Sequence record: NC_071011.1
DNA: 56,858 nt
Source of the DNA: Klebsiella phage vB_KpnS-Carvaje
Direction: 5' to 3' (one strand)
Under the pieces are notes generated by a model. The model saw only the letters and a list, made by a program, of their open reading frames with translations. It was not told the origin of the DNA and did not search any database. The translations under genes and the position numbers were made by a program. Shown here piece after piece: positions 10,975-40,827 of the stretch (positions are counted from its first letter, which is position 1; every line of letters begins with the position of its first letter).

Positions 10975-11300
10975 AAGTTTTCCCCGATGATTGCAGCACA
11001 GTTAACGATCGCTAAACGGGTTGCTTTTTCACGGTCAGCATCGCTGTTAACTACTTCTCGATAACCCACGCCTGTATCTGGATTACTCATCAAAACATCA
11101 CTCCAGTTTATTTCTAAATTCGCATATAAACTGACCATCAAACTGAAAGCATCAGCGTTATTGATAAGCGGGTTCCACAAACGACCACCACCGATATCGA
11201 TCCCTTCGTTTACGTCGCGCTCGCCATACGCGATATAGTATTTACCCTCAATTTCACCAGCGCGGGCCGCATTGATTAGCAATTCACGATTAGTCATCAT
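10971..11300 (-). CDS. hypothetical protein
   Basis: 109-aa ORF coupled to dut. Confidence 0.4.
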   Translation of the reverse strand: MMTNRELLINAARAGEIEGKYYIAYGERDVNEGIDIGGGRLWNPLINNADAFSLMVSLYANLEINWSDVLMSNPDTGVGYREVVNSDADREKATRLAIVNCAAIIGENL

Positions 11301-11800
11301 TTACGCCCCGTCGATCCGAAACCACCTTTACGCTGACTTTCCACGCCGGGCAACTGTTCCACTTCAACCACGGCTACCGGTTCAACGCGCTCTACCATCA
11401 GTTGACAGCAACGTTCACCGTGTTCCAGCATGAACACCTTGTGGGAATGGTTAACCAGAGTAATGAAATATTCGCCGGGATAATCGCGGTCACCGACACC
11501 CACGCAGTTAATCAGCGTCATACCGTTTTTCAGGCTGAGGCCGGAACGAGGGTAAAATTTGATGCAGTGATCAGCATCGACAGACATTTTCAGACCAGTG
11601 GGGATCAGTGCGCGTTCACCTGGGTAGATACCAATAATACCCTCAATGGGTTTTCGTTCCAGTTTAGCGCCTGCAGGCGGAAAGATTGTCACGGTTTCAG
11701 ACCACAGGCACGCGCGAACATCCATTCCGGCGCTATCAGCCGTTTCCCGCGTTGGGATCACAGCCAGGTTAGTGAGTCGTTGAATGTAAAGATTAGACAT
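11297..11800 (-). CDS. dut: dUTP diphosphatase (dUTPase)
   Basis: 167 aa with the five dUTPase motifs (AGMDVRA, IPTGL, PRSGL, GVGDRDYPGE, RKGGFGSTG); RBS GAGGAA. Confidence 0.85.
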   Translation of the reverse strand: MSNLYIQRLTNLAVIPTRETADSAGMDVRACLWSETVTIFPPAGAKLERKPIEGIIGIYPGERALIPTGLKMSVDADHCIKFYPRSGLSLKNGMTLINCVGVGDRDYPGEYFITLVNHSHKVFMLEHGERCCQLMVERVEPVAVVEVEQLPGVESQRKGGFGSTGRK

Positions 11801-11892: not shown

Positions 11893-12576
11893 ATGAATAA
11901 AGTTGACTGGAGTAAAGCGCCGGACTGGGCTGAATGTGTTGTTATACGTACAGGTTATCAACTTAGTGTTCATTATCATTGGTCTGAATTGCCCCGTTCG
12001 CAGGCTCGCATGATGAAGATTGAAACAGGCACTAATTTTTTAATGTCTGATCCTGCTTTTTGGCTAATTGTTGAACATCGTCCGAACATCCCCACGTTAG
12101 CTGATGACAGGTTAATCATGACACCGAAAGCCGGACGTAACACGTATGAGCAATTTATTGCAAACGGGTGGGATGATGACCAGTTAATCGAAAGTGGTTA
12201 CGCTACCAGGTTAAGCGTTGACGAAATGACAAAATACAAACAACCGTCATTAGCAGATTTACACCTGACACATTTATTTACCCCAGTAGAACAACCATCA
12301 ACTGCACCAGAACTGTTGAATCAGGCCGCACAACTTCTGGCTGAACGTGGTAAACAGTACGACAAATCAGGTGAAGAACGTTCAGCGGCTGCAATCGTCG
12401 TGGCGTTTAATGCGATCACTAAACGCGATTTAACACCAGGTGAAGGCTGGTTATTCATGGTGCTATTAAAAGCAGTTCGTTTCTATTCGAATACTGAAAC
12501 ACCACATCGTGACAGTCTGGAAGATATGATTGCCTATGCTGCGTTGCACGCTGAGGAATATCTGAATGATAAGTGA
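11893..12576 (+). CDS. hypothetical protein; carries an internal copy of the motif TYEQFIANGWDDDQLIESGY also found at the C-terminus of the DUF2815 SSB-like protein
   Basis: 227 aa from ATG 11893 (RBS GAGGAA); C-terminal helical domain. Confidence 0.45.
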   Translation: MNKVDWSKAPDWAECVVIRTGYQLSVHYHWSELPRSQARMMKIETGTNFLMSDPAFWLIVEHRPNIPTLADDRLIMTPKAGRNTYEQFIANGWDDDQLIESGYATRLSVDEMTKYKQPSLADLHLTHLFTPVEQPSTAPELLNQAAQLLAERGKQYDKSGEERSAAAIVVAFNAITKRDLTPGEGWLFMVLLKAVRFYSNTETPHRDSLEDMIAYAALHAEEYLNDK

Positions 12577-37925: not shown

Positions 37926-39809
37926 TTACCGTAACGGCGCAACCAGCTTTTCAGCCTCTTTAATGTAAAACTCATAGTTCAGTGTTGCCCGGTTGAAGCG
38001 CTGCATGTTGTTACACTCTGTTACTGTCCACCCTTTGCATACCGCCATGCGACGTTCTGGTGCGTTAGGATCAATCTTCAGTGCTTTAGCCAGTGGTGGC
38101 ATGACTTTTATTAACGGTGCACCATCAGTGCTGACATAATAACGGGTAATATTTTGAACCTGCTGATCGCCACACATTAGTTTGCTGTTACGGGGAACTT
38201 TCGTCACTAGCATGAAATCATGAATATCTTCATGTGATGTTATAAACTTACGAATATCTTTACCGTATACCAGCGCGGCTTCAGCAGCTTTTGCAACAAC
38301 CTGCATACTGTGGTTCTGATGCCAACCCAGGTCGCCGTTAGGGTTTGCATCAGTCTTAGTAGTGTGACAGTACGCACCTTTACGTTTAACTTTCTTACCG
38401 CCTTCATAAACAGCGATGTAGTTGTTTACATCACGAATAAACATCGCGTCATAAATGGCTTCTTCCAGTTCCAGACGTGTCAGTTTTTCCCACGCGTGAC
38501 GAACCTGTTCAACCTGTCCTGTAAACACACGGGGGACGTATACTGTAAGACCATCAGTGTTAGCCTGAATCATAGACAGACCCGGAATTTTCAGAAGTTC
38601 TTCAGCTAACATACACAACAGTAACTGACCGTTGATAGTGATCGACATTGTATACGCCGGGTCATAGAACGGGCTGTATACGTTATTTGAGTCACCGTAA
38701 ACACCGTTAAGTGCCAGTTTTAACATTGCGTTTTCTGGCGTACCTTTCGGGTAGCTGGAACGCATGTCATAAACGTTTTTATAAATCACACAGAACTGTT
38801 TGCCCAGATGTGCCGGGAACAGTTCATTACTGATCGCCAGGTTCGGGTAAAAACTGGCAACATCTAAATCGATGATCACATAATTATCAGTTGACCGGAT
38901 TGTTTGAGATTCAATCGATCCGTGGATACCACCTGTACCGAAATCAAAAGCAAAACCGTTAATGTTTGCACTCAGATCTGTAAATACACCTTTTGTTTCA
39001 GTGATCACCTGCTGACGTAACCAGTTTAATACACGGTTAAATTCAGGTTGTTCAAAACGGATATACGGAAAAATGACGTCATTAAGTGCAATTGAAGGTC
39101 GGATTGTTTGCCGTGGTTTTTTACCCGGTCCAGGGTAATAACATTCGATTCCTGATTTTTCCAGTTCCATAATGAAATAATCTTTACCAATTTTCGTATC
39201 ATTATGGTTCATAAAATTTCGATTATATTTAGCACTTAGTTCACGCCGGAAATCGATCAGTTTTTTACTGTGACCGTGGAACATTAAAGTCGCTTTCAAA
39301 TCGTGGATAAGATAGTGCCGAAGTGTATCAATTTGAGAATCAGTTAAATATATCCCTGGTGTAAAAGGAAGGTCTTCAATATTTTCCATTCTCATATTGA
39401 ACTCAAGCGTTTTTAAACTTGTTCTTTTTGCCTGATTATCAAAGTGGTGAATCTTATAAAGATCAATTTGTGGAACAATCCAGTCATTTTCCCACACCAT
39501 GTGAGCAAAACGATTATCATCGCCACAGTTAATGATCGCATCACCTTTACGATAAATATCAGCATTGGTGATATACATGATATTATTGAGTATCGAATGT
39601 TGAACAGGGTAGTCATAACCAATGTTGTTATAACCCACTTCTTCAGCACCATGTTCACGAAGAAATTCAGTGAACATGTAATACGCCTGACGATCATCCC
39701 GGCGATGCGAAATTTCAAAAATATAAGGCGTTCCTGTCAAAGCGTGAATAGCACCAAATAACCACACGTTAGGGTAATTTTCAATATCGTAAATGTAAGC
39801 GTCTGACAT
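37926..39809 (-). CDS. family B DNA polymerase, compact, with 3'-5' exonuclease motifs
   Basis: 627 aa; Exo I YDIE, Exo II N..GYD, Exo III Y...D; PolB motif A DLDVASFYPNLAI (DxxSLYPS), motif B KLALNGVYG (KxxxNSxYG), motif C NTDGL (DTD-like), KGAYC (KxY). Confidence 0.65.
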   Translation of the reverse strand: MSDAYIYDIENYPNVWLFGAIHALTGTPYIFEISHRRDDRQAYYMFTEFLREHGAEEVGYNNIGYDYPVQHSILNNIMYITNADIYRKGDAIINCGDDNRFAHMVWENDWIVPQIDLYKIHHFDNQAKRTSLKTLEFNMRMENIEDLPFTPGIYLTDSQIDTLRHYLIHDLKATLMFHGHSKKLIDFRRELSAKYNRNFMNHNDTKIGKDYFIMELEKSGIECYYPGPGKKPRQTIRPSIALNDVIFPYIRFEQPEFNRVLNWLRQQVITETKGVFTDLSANINGFAFDFGTGGIHGSIESQTIRSTDNYVIIDLDVASFYPNLAISNELFPAHLGKQFCVIYKNVYDMRSSYPKGTPENAMLKLALNGVYGDSNNVYSPFYDPAYTMSITINGQLLLCMLAEELLKIPGLSMIQANTDGLTVYVPRVFTGQVEQVRHAWEKLTRLELEEAIYDAMFIRDVNNYIAVYEGGKKVKRKGAYCHTTKTDANPNGDLGWHQNHSMQVVAKAAEAALVYGKDIRKFITSHEDIHDFMLVTKVPRNSKLMCGDQQVQNITRYYVSTDGAPLIKVMPPLAKALKIDPNAPERRMAVCKGWTVTECNNMQRFNRATLNYEFYIKEAEKLVAPLR

Positions 39810-39888: not shown

Positions 39889-40827
39889 TCAGTAACCGTT
39901 ACCTGTGAGAAACCCCGGCGCGGGAGTGGTCATAACCATGTAACCCTGATCAATCATTGCCTGATCTGTCCAGCCACCTGCAACAAACTGTTCATAAGTT
40001 GCACCACCTGCTTTTTCAGTCATCACTTTCACAGGTGCTGCCGCTGGCGTAGGCGCTGCTACAGGTGCTGCTACAGGTGCTGCCGCTGGCGTAGGCGCTG
40101 GCGTAGGCGCTGCTACAGGTGCTGCCGCTGGCGTAGGCGCTGCTACAGGTGCTGCCGCTGGCGTAGGCGCTGCTACAGGTGCTGCTACAGGCGCTGCTAC
40201 AGGTGCTGCCGCTGGTGTAGTCGCTGCGCCGATCGCAGTAGCGCCTGCTGGCATTGCTGGTACAGCACCAAACACAGAAGCAGGAGCCGGACCAGAAATG
40301 ATTTCTTCACCTGCGTATAGCAGTTGCGCCATTTCCATATTGATATACATCCCCGCCTGATTGCCAGTACGACCATTAGGAGACGTTGAGCCGCTAATAC
40401 GGTAATAGTAGCCTTTTTTGGCCTGATTTTTATCGATCACAGGCTGGAATTGTGCGTTATACAACGGGCAAGCATCGATCGCCACGTTGCGTGAAAATCC
40501 GATTACCCAGTGACCAGGATAACCCGTTTTTCCGGCGTGTTTTGGATCGTCACCATTCGTGATTTTCCATGCAAAAGTAGGTTGTTGCGTTTCACCATTT
40601 ACATAGTGTGCGCCAGCAGCTTTCAAAATTGCCTGGAATACCACACCCAGTTCACCTTGTTCTTCCCACCAGTTCGCGGCGGATTTAGGAAACGCCAGGC
40701 CAACCCACCAGTTGTATTTTTCAGGCGCGAGCGGTTTGTTTTCATGATCGCTGGTGTTCATATCAAAGAACGAGCCACCAACCAGACGACCAACCGGGGT
40801 GACGAATTTTTCAACAATCTTAGCCAT
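39889..40827 (-). CDS. DUF2815 family ssDNA-binding-like protein with low-complexity (AAPV)n linker and C-terminal tail motif
   Basis: 312 aa; N-terminal MAKIVEKFVTPVGRL... typical of DUF2815; linker AAAPVAAPVAAPVAAPTPAAAP...; C-terminal ATYEQFVAGGWTDQAMIDQGYM. Confidence 0.6.
   Translation of the reverse strand: MAKIVEKFVTPVGRLVGGSFFDMNTSDHENKPLAPEKYNWWVGLAFPKSAANWWEEQGELGVVFQAILKAAGAHYVNGETQQPTFAWKITNGDDPKHAGKTGYPGHWVIGFSRNVAIDACPLYNAQFQPVIDKNQAKKGYYYRISGSTSPNGRTGNQAGMYINMEMAQLLYAGEEIISGPAPASVFGAVPAMPAGATAIGAATTPAAAPVAAPVAAPVAAPTPAAAPVAAPTPAAAPVAAPTPAPTPAAAPVAAPVAAPTPAAAPVKVMTEKAGGATYEQFVAGGWTDQAMIDQGYMVMTTPAPGFLTGNGY
40031..40225. repeat. imperfect tandem repeats (12-18 bp units GCTGCTACAGGT / GCTGCCGCTGGCGTAGGC) encoding the (AAPV/AAPTP)n linker
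   Basis: Read directly; coding, in-frame. Confidence 0.8.

What the first reader, a model, noticed from the sequence alone, without database searches (positions are those of the whole stretch)
39889..40827. SSB-like DUF2815 protein with a repetitive (AAPV)n linker and a C-terminal tail motif that recurs inside an unrelated gene
The DUF2815 protein has a globular N-terminal domain followed by an approximately 60-aa Ala/Pro/Val/Thr low-complexity linker encoded by DNA tandem repeats (40031..40225). Its C-terminal segment ATYEQFVAGGWTDQAMIDQGYM is re-used almost verbatim (NTYEQFIANGWDDDQLIESGYA) in the middle of the 11893..12576 protein in the dut region. A globular domain plus flexible linker plus conserved acidic/aromatic tip resembles the bacterial SSB C-terminal tail, which acts as a protein-interaction hub. 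The shared motif may be a docking peptide for a common partner such as the polymerase, the DUF2800 nuclease or the primase. The tandem-repeat linker is also a likely site of length polymorphism.
Basis: partly seen in the sequence, partly recalled or inferred. Interest (0 to 1): 0.6.

Follow-up and report, generated by a model that had tools for sequence, protein, structure and literature searches.

The report
Shared mini-domain on phage SSB tail
The phage's single-stranded-DNA-binding protein ends in a flexible Pro/Ala repeat linker carrying a tiny, previously unnamed folded domain that is also present in a second, unrelated protein of the same phage and in over a thousand other phage protein clusters, most likely as a tether that brings proteins together at replicating DNA.

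Summary
The window is the whole genome of Klebsiella phage vB_KpnS-Carvaje, a 9NA-like siphophage. Gene 39889..40827(-) encodes a T7-gp2.5/Enc34-type (DUF2815-like) SSB. It has an OB domain, an 80-aa Pro/Ala/Val/Thr linker encoded by tandem DNA repeats, and a C-terminal element shared with the 11893..12576 protein (17/29 identical, E 8e-10).

The shared element is not an acidic SSB-type tip. It is a folded mini-domain of about 33-36 aa with beta-alpha-alpha-beta topology (AlphaFold pLDDT 97) and no model in Pfam, NCBIfam or PDB.

A profile search finds 1066 protein clusters carrying it. Most are phage SSBs of at least three families (9NA-type, bona fide PF10991, DUF669). The domain usually sits at the very C-terminus behind a P/A linker, often in 2-4 copies.

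In all ten loci or genomes outside the 9NA-like group where this could be checked, a non-SSB carrier was encoded alongside a second carrier. That second carrier was an identifiable SSB in eight.

Linker length varies from 31 to 101 aa among close relatives.

The best reading is a modular protein-protein tether on the SSB tail that accessory proteins also carry. The binding target is unknown: a common receptor or the domain itself. DUF2800 nuclease is unlikely to be a universal partner.

The parts
39889..40827 (-). SSB gene (312 aa): gp2.5/Enc34-type (DUF2815-like) ssDNA-binding and annealing protein
   Evidence: PHROG 7011 E 4e-94. Pfam PF10991 scores 20.7 bits, below the 26-bit cut-off. The OB profile hits PDB 4jg2 (DUF2815) at E 3.3e-6 and Enc34 5odk weakly. 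The gene is syntenic with 9NA gp66, between the DUF2800 exonuclease and the DNA polymerase.
40273..40827 (-). OB-fold ssDNA-binding domain (aa 1-185)
   Evidence: This is the region aligned to PF10991 and to PDB 4jg2. It is conserved down to about 30% identity in distant homologues.
40033..40272 (-). Pro/Ala/Val/Thr linker (aa 186-265). It begins with the conserved FG..AMPAGA segment and continues with about 6.5 decapeptide repeats (TPAAAPVAAP)
   Evidence: 93% P+A+V+T for the 81-aa stretch measured up to the VMT start of the mini-domain, which overlaps the next part by one residue. The length of that stretch varies from 31 to 101 aa in close homologues while both flanking domains stay constant.
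40031..40227 (.). DNA tandem-repeat array that encodes the linker repeats
   Evidence: TRF periods 30/42/12, 4.7-7 copies, 74-77% matches. GC 64.5%. The same region is annotated 'direct tandem repeat region' in the Sasha and Sergei records.
39928..40032 (-). Mini-domain copy 1 (SSB aa 266-300, VKVMTEKAGGATYEQFVAGGWTDQAMIDQGYMVMT)
   Evidence: AF2 on an 81-sequence alignment: pLDDT 97.4, strand 3-5, helix 14-19, helix 24-30, strand 33-35. Profile family of 1066 clusters. Synonymous codon changes outnumber non-synonymous ones against 9NA-like relatives.
39892..39927 (-). Terminal short motif TPAPGFLTGNGY (aa 301-312) ending in a conserved aromatic residue
   Evidence: Conserved in all 9NA-like SSBs as TPAP[GN]FL[TNQ]G[ND]GY. 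In distant SSBs an NP[AG]FL-type motif lies before or between mini-domains. Only synonymous changes against relatives.
11893..12576 (+). Second carrier gene (227 aa): small beta-barrel, then mini-domain, then DUF6378 helical bundle. It is transcribed divergently from dUTPase (11297..11800, -)
   Evidence: PF19905 DUF6378: 32.7 bits against a 27.1-bit cut-off, aa 140-221. AF2 model. dUTPase confirmed by Pfam.
11893..12078 (+). N-terminal five-strand beta domain (aa 1-62), weakly SH3/KOW-like
   Evidence: pLDDT 88-97. Foldseek finds only weak SH3/KOW matches: E 0.36-2, probability up to 0.84. No Pfam hit.
12106..12213 (+). Mini-domain copy 2 (aa 72-107, DRLIMTPKAGRNTYEQFIANGWDDDQLIESGYATRL)
   Evidence: 63.8 bits to the motif HMM. 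In the full-length model it has the same strand-helix-helix-strand pattern (E74-76, H85-90, H95-100, E104-106) with block-mean pLDDT 87-96.
12304..12573 (+). DUF6378 four-helix domain (aa 138-227), function unknown
   Evidence: Helices 138-156, 163-176, 182-200 and 206-224, pLDDT 55-74. This domain usually occurs alone as an 85-100-aa phage protein.

Best explanation
The 312-aa protein is the phage's T7-gp2.5/Enc34-type SSB and annealing protein. In place of the canonical acidic tail it carries three elements: (1) a neutral, extended Pro/Ala-rich spacer whose length drifts through slippage or recombination in its DNA tandem repeats; (2) a 33-36-aa beta-alpha-alpha-beta mini-domain; (3) a short terminal motif ending in an aromatic residue.

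The mini-domain is an autonomous, portable protein-protein interaction module, a tether held on a leash above SSB-coated ssDNA. Accessory proteins of the same phage carry the same module. Here that is the beta-barrel/DUF6378 protein next to dUTPase; elsewhere it is DUF7173, GapR-like and other small proteins. They are therefore directed to the same place as the SSB tail. This could work by binding the same receptor, competitively or cooperatively, as the acidic tails of T7 gp2.5 and gp4 both bind gp5/thioredoxin. It could also work by mini-domain to mini-domain association.

Shown: the family, the fold prediction, the architectures, the co-occurrence within genomes, the linker polymorphism and purifying selection. 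Inferred: that the module mediates protein binding, and what it binds.
For: (1) Two significant copies in the window.
(2) It is a folded unit. AF2 gives pLDDT 97.4 alone and the same secondary structure inside the DUF6378 protein, where it is flanked by lower-confidence segments.
(3) A profile search of 1.84 billion representatives finds 1066 hits at E<=1e-3 and 311 at E<=1e-10.
(4) Portability. All 180 pooled sequences (the 150 best profile hits, the 28 SSB-search hits and the 2 window proteins) were clustered on their non-motif parts. This gave 94 9NA-type SSBs, 23 PF10991 SSBs and 12 DUF669 proteins. The remainder include NGO0469-like, DUF7173, GapR, Cys-rich phrog_27714 and other families.
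(5) Position. In 113 of 172 carriers it is within 5 aa of the C-terminus behind a P/A linker, and many carriers have 2-4 copies separated by P/A spacers. This is the geometry of a tethered interaction module.
(6) It coexists with canonical D(I/L)PF SSB tips in 6 carriers, so it is a distinct function and not a degenerate tip.
(7) Co-occurrence. Every non-SSB carrier whose context could be read sits in a locus or genome with a second carrier, normally the SSB. These are the window, 9NA, KP13-27, L021, L068, L084, L088, L103, L106, L107, L108 and L109. In KP13-27 the SSB copy is detected by tblastn only. In L021 and L107 the partner is a Cys-rich phrog_27714 protein not shown to be an SSB.
(8) The mean net charge is -1.26 and no basic residues are conserved, which argues against nucleic-acid binding.
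(9) Synonymous codon changes outnumber non-synonymous ones in the mini-domain and tail.
(10) Precedent: the T7 gp2.5 tail competes with the gp4 tail for gp5/trx (bioRxiv 10.64898/2026.05.20.726333), and the Redbeta C-terminal domain binds lambda Exo and host SSB (PMC11611040).
Against: No interaction was modelled or measured. No coordinates or PAE were available, so no interface can be described. No gene family is present in all carrier loci. Of 31 loci with at least 8 kb on both sides, DUF2800 is in 26, the SF2 helicase in 27 and the NrS-1-like primase-helicase in 24, so a single phage-encoded receptor is not established. Within-genome copies are not generally more alike than between-genome copies; only 3 of 11 genomes show this. 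There is therefore no co-evolution signal for a lineage-specific partner. About half of the 9NA-like DUF6378 homologues lack the module or keep only a remnant, so it is dispensable for that protein.
Confidence: 0.6

Rival explanations
1. Common-receptor version. The module docks on one phage replisome component. The hexameric NrS-1-like primase-helicase, the SF2 helicase or the PolA-type polymerase are the best candidates. SSB and accessory proteins then share or compete for that site.
For: The window encodes all three candidates next to the SSB. The same trio recurs in very different carrier phages: L008, L106, L107, L108 and L109. Multiple tandem copies would suit an oligomeric target. T7 provides a precedent.
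Against: None of these families was detected in all 31 well-flanked loci, although flank length and HMM sensitivity limit this test. There is no covariation with genome lineage. The DUF2800 nuclease specifically is missing from the AAA_24/DUF669 loci.
Confidence: 0.3
2. Homotypic version. Mini-domains bind each other, so any protein carrying one is recruited to SSB-coated ssDNA. Multi-copy SSB tails would crosslink into cooperative assemblies or condensates, with the mini-domains as stickers and the P/A linkers as spacers.
For: A second carrier, normally the SSB, was found in every carrier genome that was examined. Carriers have 2-4 tandem copies. The sequence is generic and highly conserved across unrelated phages with no lineage specificity. 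This is expected if the partner is the domain itself.
Against: There is no structural or biochemical evidence of dimerisation. A single-copy, 33-aa acidic domain is a weak candidate for stable self-association. Co-occurrence is explained equally well by a common receptor.
Confidence: 0.22
3. Host-factor hook. The module binds a conserved proteobacterial protein (for example DnaB, the beta clamp, host SSB, RecA or RNA polymerase) to couple or hijack host machinery.
For: All 53 cultured-phage records with the domain infect Proteobacteria. The sequence is conserved irrespective of which replisome the phage encodes.
Against: Some metagenome bins with genuine copies are labelled Bacteroidota, Verrucomicrobiota, Chloroflexi or Planctomycetes, although binning of phage contigs is unreliable. 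No host protein carries or is known to bind such a domain. Only 9 genuine copies were found in representative genomes of 185,579 species.
Confidence: 0.15
4. Accessory nucleic-acid-binding mini-domain (HeH/SAP/LysM-like beta-alpha-alpha-beta fold) that adds DNA contacts to the SSB.
For: The helix-turn-helix-like core resembles small DNA-binding motifs in outline. All carriers are DNA-associated proteins.
Confidence: 0.05
5. Chance or low-complexity similarity, or a neutral remnant of an intragenomic duplication with no function.
For: The motif is short. It is optional in the DUF6378 protein, and half-deleted remnants exist.
Against: E 8e-10 pairwise and 1e-9 against the six-frame window. 1066 family members. 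A confident fold. DNA identity is only about 70%, yet the protein motif is retained across all 9NA-like SSBs with synonymous changes outnumbering non-synonymous ones.
Confidence: 0.03

Closest known systems
T7 gp2.5 and Enterobacter phage Enc34 ORF6 (DUF2815, PF10991) SSBs
   Same: Homologous OB-fold ssDNA-binding domain. Gene context with a PD-(D/E)XK exonuclease, a PolA-type polymerase, a helicase and a primase. The C-terminal extension is thought to mediate partner contacts.
   Different: Those proteins have a short, strongly acidic, disordered tail: 16 of the last 29 residues in Enc34 are acidic (PMC5686142). Here only 2 of the last 29 residues are acidic. The tail is replaced by an 80-aa neutral P/A repeat linker, a folded mini-domain and a neutral motif ending in Tyr.
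Shared acidic C-terminal tails of T7 gp2.5 (SSB) and gp4 (helicase-primase)
   Same: Two different replication proteins of one phage carry the same C-terminal element and compete for one site on the polymerase/thioredoxin complex (bioRxiv 10.64898/2026.05.20.726333). This is the closest functional precedent for a module shared by the SSB and another protein.
   Different: In T7 the element is a disordered acidic peptide ending in Phe. Here it is a folded domain. The second carrier is not a core replisome enzyme, and the receptor is unknown.
Bacterial SSB intrinsically disordered linker plus acidic tip (DDDIPF) interaction hub
   Same: An OB domain, a flexible low-complexity linker and a conserved C-terminal recognition element. 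Six carriers of the mini-domain also end in D(I/L)PF.
   Different: The window protein has no acidic tip. The recognition element is a domain rather than a 6-9-residue peptide. The OB domain belongs to a different SSB lineage (own knowledge for E. coli SSB).
RPA32 C-terminal winged-helix domain of eukaryotic RPA (own knowledge, not tested here)
   Same: A small folded protein-recruitment domain tethered to an SSB by a flexible linker.
   Different: Unrelated fold and size, about 70 aa winged helix against about 33 aa beta-alpha-alpha-beta. RPA32C is not duplicated on its client proteins.
Lambda Redbeta C-terminal domain
   Same: A small C-terminal domain of a phage annealing protein, joined by a flexible linker, that binds the partner exonuclease and host SSB (PMC11611040). 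The window SSB gene lies directly downstream of a DUF2800 exonuclease gene.
   Different: No sequence or fold relationship was detected. The mini-domain also occurs in phages without DUF2800.

Membership tests
DUF2815 / Enc34-type (T7 gp2.5-like) SSB | OB-fold domain homologous to PF10991 / solved DUF2815 structures | tested here: met
   Pfam PF10991 E 3.6e-4 but 20.7 bits, below the 26-bit cut-off. PHROG 7011 'Gp2.5-like SSB' E 4e-94. A profile of the OB domain hits PDB 4jg2 at E 3.3e-6, and 4klk and 5odk weakly. The protein is a divergent subfamily rather than a core Pfam member.
DUF2815 / Enc34-type (T7 gp2.5-like) SSB | Long acidic, disordered C-terminal tail | tested here: not met
   Only 2 of the last 29 residues are acidic, against 16 of 29 in Enc34 ORF6. 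The C-terminal region consists of a neutral P/A linker, a folded mini-domain and TPAPGFLTGNGY.
DUF2815 / Enc34-type (T7 gp2.5-like) SSB | Replication-module context (exonuclease, polymerase, helicase, primase) | tested here: met
   DUF2800 (E 8e-51) lies upstream and the polymerase downstream. An SF2 helicase, an Rv2179c-like exonuclease and an NrS-1-like primase/D5_N/DUF5906 protein are nearby.
DUF2815 / Enc34-type (T7 gp2.5-like) SSB | Preferential ssDNA binding / annealing activity | not testable with these tools
   This needs EMSA or annealing assays.
Bacterial-type SSB C-terminal tip (SSB-Ct) | Extreme C-terminal acidic residues followed by a hydrophobic I/L-P-F | tested here: not met
   The protein ends ...PAPGFLTGNGY. 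Other carriers of the mini-domain do end in DDLPF, DIPF or GIPF, which shows that the two elements are distinct.
New 'GWTD' beta-alpha-alpha-beta mini-domain family (defined here) | 33-36 aa matching the profile, with conserved M5, T6, A9, G11, Y14, W22 and G31 (>=90% in A4, A9 and W22 invariant) and D24 (>=90% in A3 only) | tested here: met
   Both window copies headed the 81-sequence alignment. The DUF6378 copy scores 63.8 bits. The SSB copy belongs to the seed alignment.
New 'GWTD' beta-alpha-alpha-beta mini-domain family (defined here) | Autonomous fold strand-helix-helix-strand | tested here: met
   AF2 gives pLDDT 97.4 for the isolated domain, and the same elements appear in the full-length DUF6378 protein. 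This is a prediction only.
DUF6378 (PF19905), second carrier | C-terminal helical domain matching PF19905 above the gathering score | tested here: met
   32.7 bits against a 27.1-bit cut-off, aa 140-221. Four helices are predicted.
HeH/SAP/LysM-type small nucleic-acid- or glycan-binding domains (considered) | Structural similarity and basic or ligand-binding surface | tested here: not met

The most novel reading that the evidence does not exclude
The mini-domain is a general 'address tag' of a large group of Proteobacteria phages. SSB tails display one to four copies on P/A spacers, and any phage protein carrying the same tag (DUF6378, DUF7173, GapR-like and others) is concentrated on SSB-coated ssDNA. 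This could happen through homotypic or hub-mediated multivalent binding. The result would be a self-organising replication/recombination compartment whose composition evolves by gain and loss of a 100-nt cassette.
Probability: 0.25. Interest if true: 0.75.

Novelty: new variant of a known kind. Interest (0 to 1): 0.6.

Why it matters
SSB tails are the organising hubs of replication, repair and recombination. The paradigm is a disordered acidic peptide. Here a large set of phage SSBs uses a folded, portable mini-domain on a proline/alanine leash instead. The set spans at least three SSB families and more than 1000 clusters at 50% identity, and includes cultured Salmonella, E. coli, Klebsiella, Yersinia, Vibrio, Pseudomonas and Burkholderia phages.

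The same domain marks accessory proteins of unknown function in the same genomes. This gives three practical benefits:
- a named, searchable domain for annotating many 'hypothetical' C-termini;
- a direct handle (bait) for finding the interaction network of the poorly studied DUF2800/DUF2815/NrS-1-type replisomes;
- a guilt-by-tag route to functions for DUF6378, DUF7173 and related orphan proteins.

It is also relevant for engineering therapeutic Klebsiella and Salmonella phages and gp2.5-type recombineering systems.

Tried and rejected
- Known domain models. Pfam, NCBIfam and PHROGs were scanned with the motif and with motif-only proteins. Results were only sub-threshold 'Decapeptide' PF25296 hits (22 bits against a 45-bit cut-off) and matches to the C-terminus of phrog_7011 itself.
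- Fold of the DUF6378 protein. The AF2 model has pTM 0.39. Foldseek finds nothing significant, only weak SH3/KOW-like matches for the N-terminal barrel. The helical DUF6378 domain remains unassigned, and a PDB phmmer search gave nothing.
- Co-evolution test. I asked whether an accessory protein's mini-domain is most similar to its own genome's SSB copy. This is true only for L084, L088 and L103, which look like recent duplication or conversion. It is not true for the window (27th percentile), for 9NA, or for the others. It therefore gives no support for lineage-specific specificity.
- Search for a universal neighbouring gene, as a candidate receptor, in 31 well-flanked viral loci. None was present in all.
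- Alignment-based scan of bacterial genomes. I replaced it with a degenerate DNA pattern, which gave 15 matches, 9 genuine and mostly on MAG contigs.
- Literature. No paper describing the mini-domain was found. The 9NA-like genomics paper (PMC6819911) and the gp2.5 review (PMC6162179) are not held.
Full report
**Identity of the window.** The 227-aa product of 11893..12576 is 100% identical to a protein of Klebsiella phage vB_KpnS-Carvaje, found on a contig of 56,858 bp, which is the window length. The closest DNA relatives are Klebsiella phages phi_KPN_H2 and phi_270 (94% over the SSB gene) and the Salmonella/E. coli 9NA- and Sasha-like siphophages (81-85%). The region is syntenic with 9NA: methylase ... 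DNA polymerase (gp65), SSB (gp66), exonuclease (gp67), gp68, then helicase, exonuclease and primase on the other strand.

**Check of the observation.** Both ORFs exist as described.
- Tandem Repeats Finder reports an array at 40031..40227 with periods 30/42/12 and about 7 copies of a 30-nt unit. It encodes decapeptide repeats (TPAAAPVAAP) and creates a local GC peak of 64.5%.
- BLASTP between the two proteins gives one significant segment of 29 aa, with 17 identities and E 8e-10.
- A six-frame tblastn of the window finds only these two copies, at E about 1e-9. The next hit has E 0.02-0.07.
- The two copies are only about 70% identical at the DNA level, so they are old paralogous modules and not a recent duplication.
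- The similarity is significant but not 'almost verbatim'. The segment is followed in the SSB by 12 more residues, so it is not the tip.

**The SSB.** PHROG 7011 ('Gp2.5-like ssDNA binding and annealing protein') matches over the full length at E 4e-94. Pfam PF10991 (Enc34_ssDNA-bd, formerly DUF2815) matches aa 69-187 at 20.7 bits, below the 26-bit cut-off. A profile built from the OB domains of 16 homologues hits the solved DUF2815 protein 4jg2 at E 3.3e-6, and hits 4klk and Enc34 5odk/5odj weakly. The N-terminal 185 aa are therefore a divergent member of the T7-type SSB fold.

[quoted passage not shown] The Carvaje protein does not; only 2 of its last 29 residues are acidic.

**The linker.** I measured the stretch between the end of the OB domain (…EEIISGPAPASVF) and the VMT start of the mini-domain. 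It is 81 aa and 93% P/A/V/T. In 15 close homologues the same stretch ranges from 31 to 101 aa, while the OB domain, the mini-domain and the tail remain constant. Different relatives use different decapeptide registers, such as ATPAPVAAPV or TPAAAPVAAP. The GenBank records of phages Sasha and Sergei already annotate a 'direct tandem repeat region' here.

**The shared motif is a folded mini-domain.**
- The first homologue search showed the consensus (K)VMTxKAxGATYEQFxAxGWTDxQxIxxGYM at the C-terminus of every 9NA-like SSB. It also appeared in SSBs whose OB domains are only about 30% identical, and in three DUF669 (PF05037) proteins.
- AlphaFold2 on an 81-sequence alignment of the 36-aa segment gives mean pLDDT 97.4. 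The elements are strand 3-5, a short turn, helix 14-19, helix 24-30 and strand 33-35.
- The same pattern appears, with block-mean pLDDT 87-96, inside the full-length model of the 227-aa protein. There it is separated from the DUF6378 bundle by a disordered segment at 116-134.
- A9 and W22 are invariant. M5, T6, G11, Y14 and G31 are at least 90% conserved in the 81-sequence alignment. D24 is at least 90% conserved only in the 17-sequence seed.

**Distribution.** A profile HMM search of 1.84 billion cluster representatives returns 1066 proteins at E<=1e-3 and 311 at E<=1e-10. Two of the top 150 (P0042, P0090) are spurious repeat proteins.

Many proteins carry 2-4 copies separated by P/A spacers. 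I pooled all 180 sequences held (150 profile hits, 28 SSB-search hits and the 2 window proteins) and clustered them after masking the motif. The result was:
- 94 9NA-type SSBs;
- 23 bona fide PF10991 SSBs (P0054, E 4e-15);
- 12 DUF669 proteins;
- a tail of other architectures.

The other architectures include:
- an NGO0469-family protein ending in DDLPF;
- two other families ending in DDLPF or DLPF;
- a Cys-rich phrog_27714 family;
- a DUF7173 fusion;
- a GapR/DUF2312 fusion;
- a family with 2-3 copies followed by a conserved W..DG..W.D..G..W…G.FKKRRG…DLIKDWG module;
- short stand-alone proteins.

In 113 of 172 carriers the last copy is within 5 aa of the C-terminus. Six carriers add a canonical D(I/L)PF tip. 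DUF669 carriers end in PPW.

Among cultured phages, tblastn finds 53 records, and every host is a proteobacterium: Salmonella, Escherichia, Klebsiella, Yersinia, Vibrio, Shewanella, Alteromonas, Pseudomonas, Stenotrophomonas and Burkholderia. For example, the DUF2815 protein of Vibrio phage 1.021.A has two copies. A degenerate DNA pattern scan of one genome for each of 185,579 bacterial and archaeal species gave 15 matches. Only 9 were genuine, and most were on MAG contigs. The domain is therefore essentially viral.

**The second carrier.** The 227-aa protein has four parts:
- a confidently predicted five-strand beta domain (aa 1-62), with weak SH3/KOW-like Foldseek matches only;
- the mini-domain (aa 72-107);
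- a disordered segment;
- a four-helix DUF6378 domain (PF19905, 32.7 bits against a 27.1-bit cut-off).

DUF6378 normally occurs alone as an 85-100-aa phage protein. One such protein sits beside the primase in L008.

Among 120 homologues from 9NA-like phages, about 53 have the full mini-domain, about 14 retain only its second half (NDDQLVEHGYAVRT) and 53 lack it. In 9NA the module is present behind a different N-terminal domain. The module is therefore an optional cassette in this protein, while it is constant in the SSB. The PHROG label 'phosphofructokinase' has no support. The function of DUF6378 remains unknown.

**Co-occurrence.** In 80 IMG/VR loci retrieved with the motif, most have one carrier within ±10 kb, and that carrier is the SSB. 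Four loci have two carriers. Whenever I could read the surroundings of a non-SSB carrier, a second carrier, normally an SSB, was encoded nearby:

| Locus | Carriers |
|---|---|
| L021, L107 | Cys-rich phrog_27714 protein plus the FKKRRG-module protein, adjacent genes |
| L068, L084, L088 | PF10991 SSB plus a protein of about 195 aa |
| L103 | SSB plus a polymerase-exonuclease fragment plus a coiled-coil protein |
| L106 | DUF7173, AAA_24 and a DUF669-like SSB in one operon |
| L108 | a 310-aa protein, DUF2800 and the SSB |
| L109 | DUF7173, DUF669 SSB and a 261-aa protein |

In L104 the GapR fusion lies next to DUF2800, but the SSB is cut off by the contig end. With the window, 9NA and KP13-27, that makes 12 independent loci or genomes and no counter-example. 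In KP13-27 the SSB copy rests on a tblastn hit only. In L021 and L107 the partner carrier has not been shown to be an SSB.

**What the module binds.** This is not resolved.
- Nucleic-acid binding is unlikely. The mean net charge is -1.26, only 6 of 231 copies are positive, and no basic residue is conserved.
- In 31 loci with at least 8 kb on both sides, DUF2800 occurs in 26, the SF2 helicase in 27 and the NrS-1-like primase/SF3 helicase in 24. The polymerase occurs in 13, but its HMM was narrow. No family is universal.
- Still, a large primase/SF3-helicase protein of about 760-800 aa is present in all seven fully annotated contexts. It is NrS-1-type in five of them, RepB_primase/DUF5906 in L107 and DUF3987 in L007. 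The SF2 helicase is Pfam-annotated in all of them except L007.
- Within-genome copies are markedly more similar than background only in L084, L088 and L103. The module therefore looks generic rather than lineage-matched.

These data fit either a conserved receptor or homotypic association. They do not discriminate between the two. Codon comparisons with 9NA-like relatives show more synonymous than non-synonymous changes in the mini-domain (7:4, 6:5, 7:3). In the terminal motif the ratio is 2:0 in each comparison, which is comparable to the OB domain.

**Comparison with known systems.** The closest functional precedent is T7. There the acidic tails of gp2.5 and gp4 bind the same basic patches of gp5/thioredoxin and compete with each other (bioRxiv 10.64898/2026.05.20.726333). 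The Redbeta C-terminal domain, a small domain on a linker that binds lambda Exo and host SSB, is another analogue (PMC11611040). From my own knowledge, the RPA32 winged-helix domain is the eukaryotic analogue of a folded recruitment domain tethered to an SSB. The Carvaje protein belongs to the DUF2815/gp2.5 fold family but fails that family's 'acidic tail' feature. It also fails the bacterial SSB-Ct definition.

**Verdict.** The linker and the SSB identity are ordinary. The mini-domain is new as far as these libraries and the searchable literature show. It is a widespread, portable C-terminal module of phage SSBs that is shared with accessory proteins in the same genomes. I class it as a new variant of a known kind, namely SSB C-terminal interaction hubs.

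Noticed in passing
window 39892..39927 (-); also P0013-P0024 and L108:12280-13236: A second short motif, TPAP[GN]FL.G[ND]GY, ends all 9NA-like SSBs with a conserved terminal Tyr. In distant SSBs an NP[AG]FL-type motif lies in the linker before or between mini-domains: 40 of 172 carriers have it, 21 before, 15 after and 5 between. It may be an independent docking peptide.
   Followed up: partly
window 40230..40272 (-), SSB aa about 186-200: The start of the linker carries a conserved FG...(A/L)(M/L)PAGA..(I/P) segment. It is retained in SSBs whose OB domain is only about 30% identical. It is not part of the repeats, and its role is unknown.
   Followed up: no
window 11893..12078 (+): The N-terminal 62 aa of the DUF6378 protein are predicted with pLDDT 88-97 as a small five-strand beta domain, with weak SH3/KOW/Tudor-like Foldseek matches (E 0.36-2). 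An SH3-like domain next to a proline-rich SSB linker is suggestive but unproven.
   Followed up: partly
P0226, P0229, P0231, P0233, P0236, P0223, P0273 and others; L006:1226-1861: About 14 of 120 DUF6378 homologues keep only the second helix and strand of the mini-domain (NDDQLVEHGYAVRT). These are in-frame deletion remnants and show ongoing loss of the cassette.
   Followed up: yes
L103:2675-5619 (Verrucomicrobiota-labelled MAG contig): An ORF that starts with a polymerase 3'-5' exonuclease motif (DVDFETYSE) continues into a near-exact copy of the neighbouring SSB's linker and mini-domain. A coiled-coil ORF with a degenerate copy follows. This could be a split or rearranged polymerase gene, or an assembly artefact.
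   Followed up: partly
P0070, P0095, P0099, P0109, P0121, P0065, P0119; L021:10098-10952; L107:10001-11050: An uncharacterised protein family with 1-3 mini-domains plus a conserved W..DG..W.D..G..W...H...P..T..G.FKKRRG module and a C-terminal D.EL..LIKDWG. It is encoded directly beside the SSB-like gene. No Pfam or PHROG function is assigned.
   Followed up: partly
P0025, P0026, P0028, P0157, P0158, P0138; L106:11480-12421: DUF669-type carriers place a second P/A linker after the mini-domain and end in a conserved PPW(A/E) tip. This is a different terminal motif from both the acidic IPF tip and the 9NA-type GNGY.
   Followed up: no
window 37926..39809 (-): The 627-aa protein syntenic with the 9NA DNA polymerase (gp65) has no Pfam hit at E<=0.01. 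Polymerases in related modules hit DNA_pol_A only weakly. It is a very divergent PolA-like enzyme.
   Followed up: no
window 11893..12576; PHROG 474/1167: The PHROG and GenBank label 'phosphofructokinase' for DUF6378 proteins appears to be a propagated misannotation. Nothing in Pfam, PDB or the fold search supports it.
   Followed up: partly
P0111; L104:10001-10363: A GapR-like (DUF2312, PF10073) nucleoid-associated DNA-binding protein carries the mini-domain at its N-terminus and lies immediately upstream of a DUF2800 exonuclease gene.
   Followed up: partly
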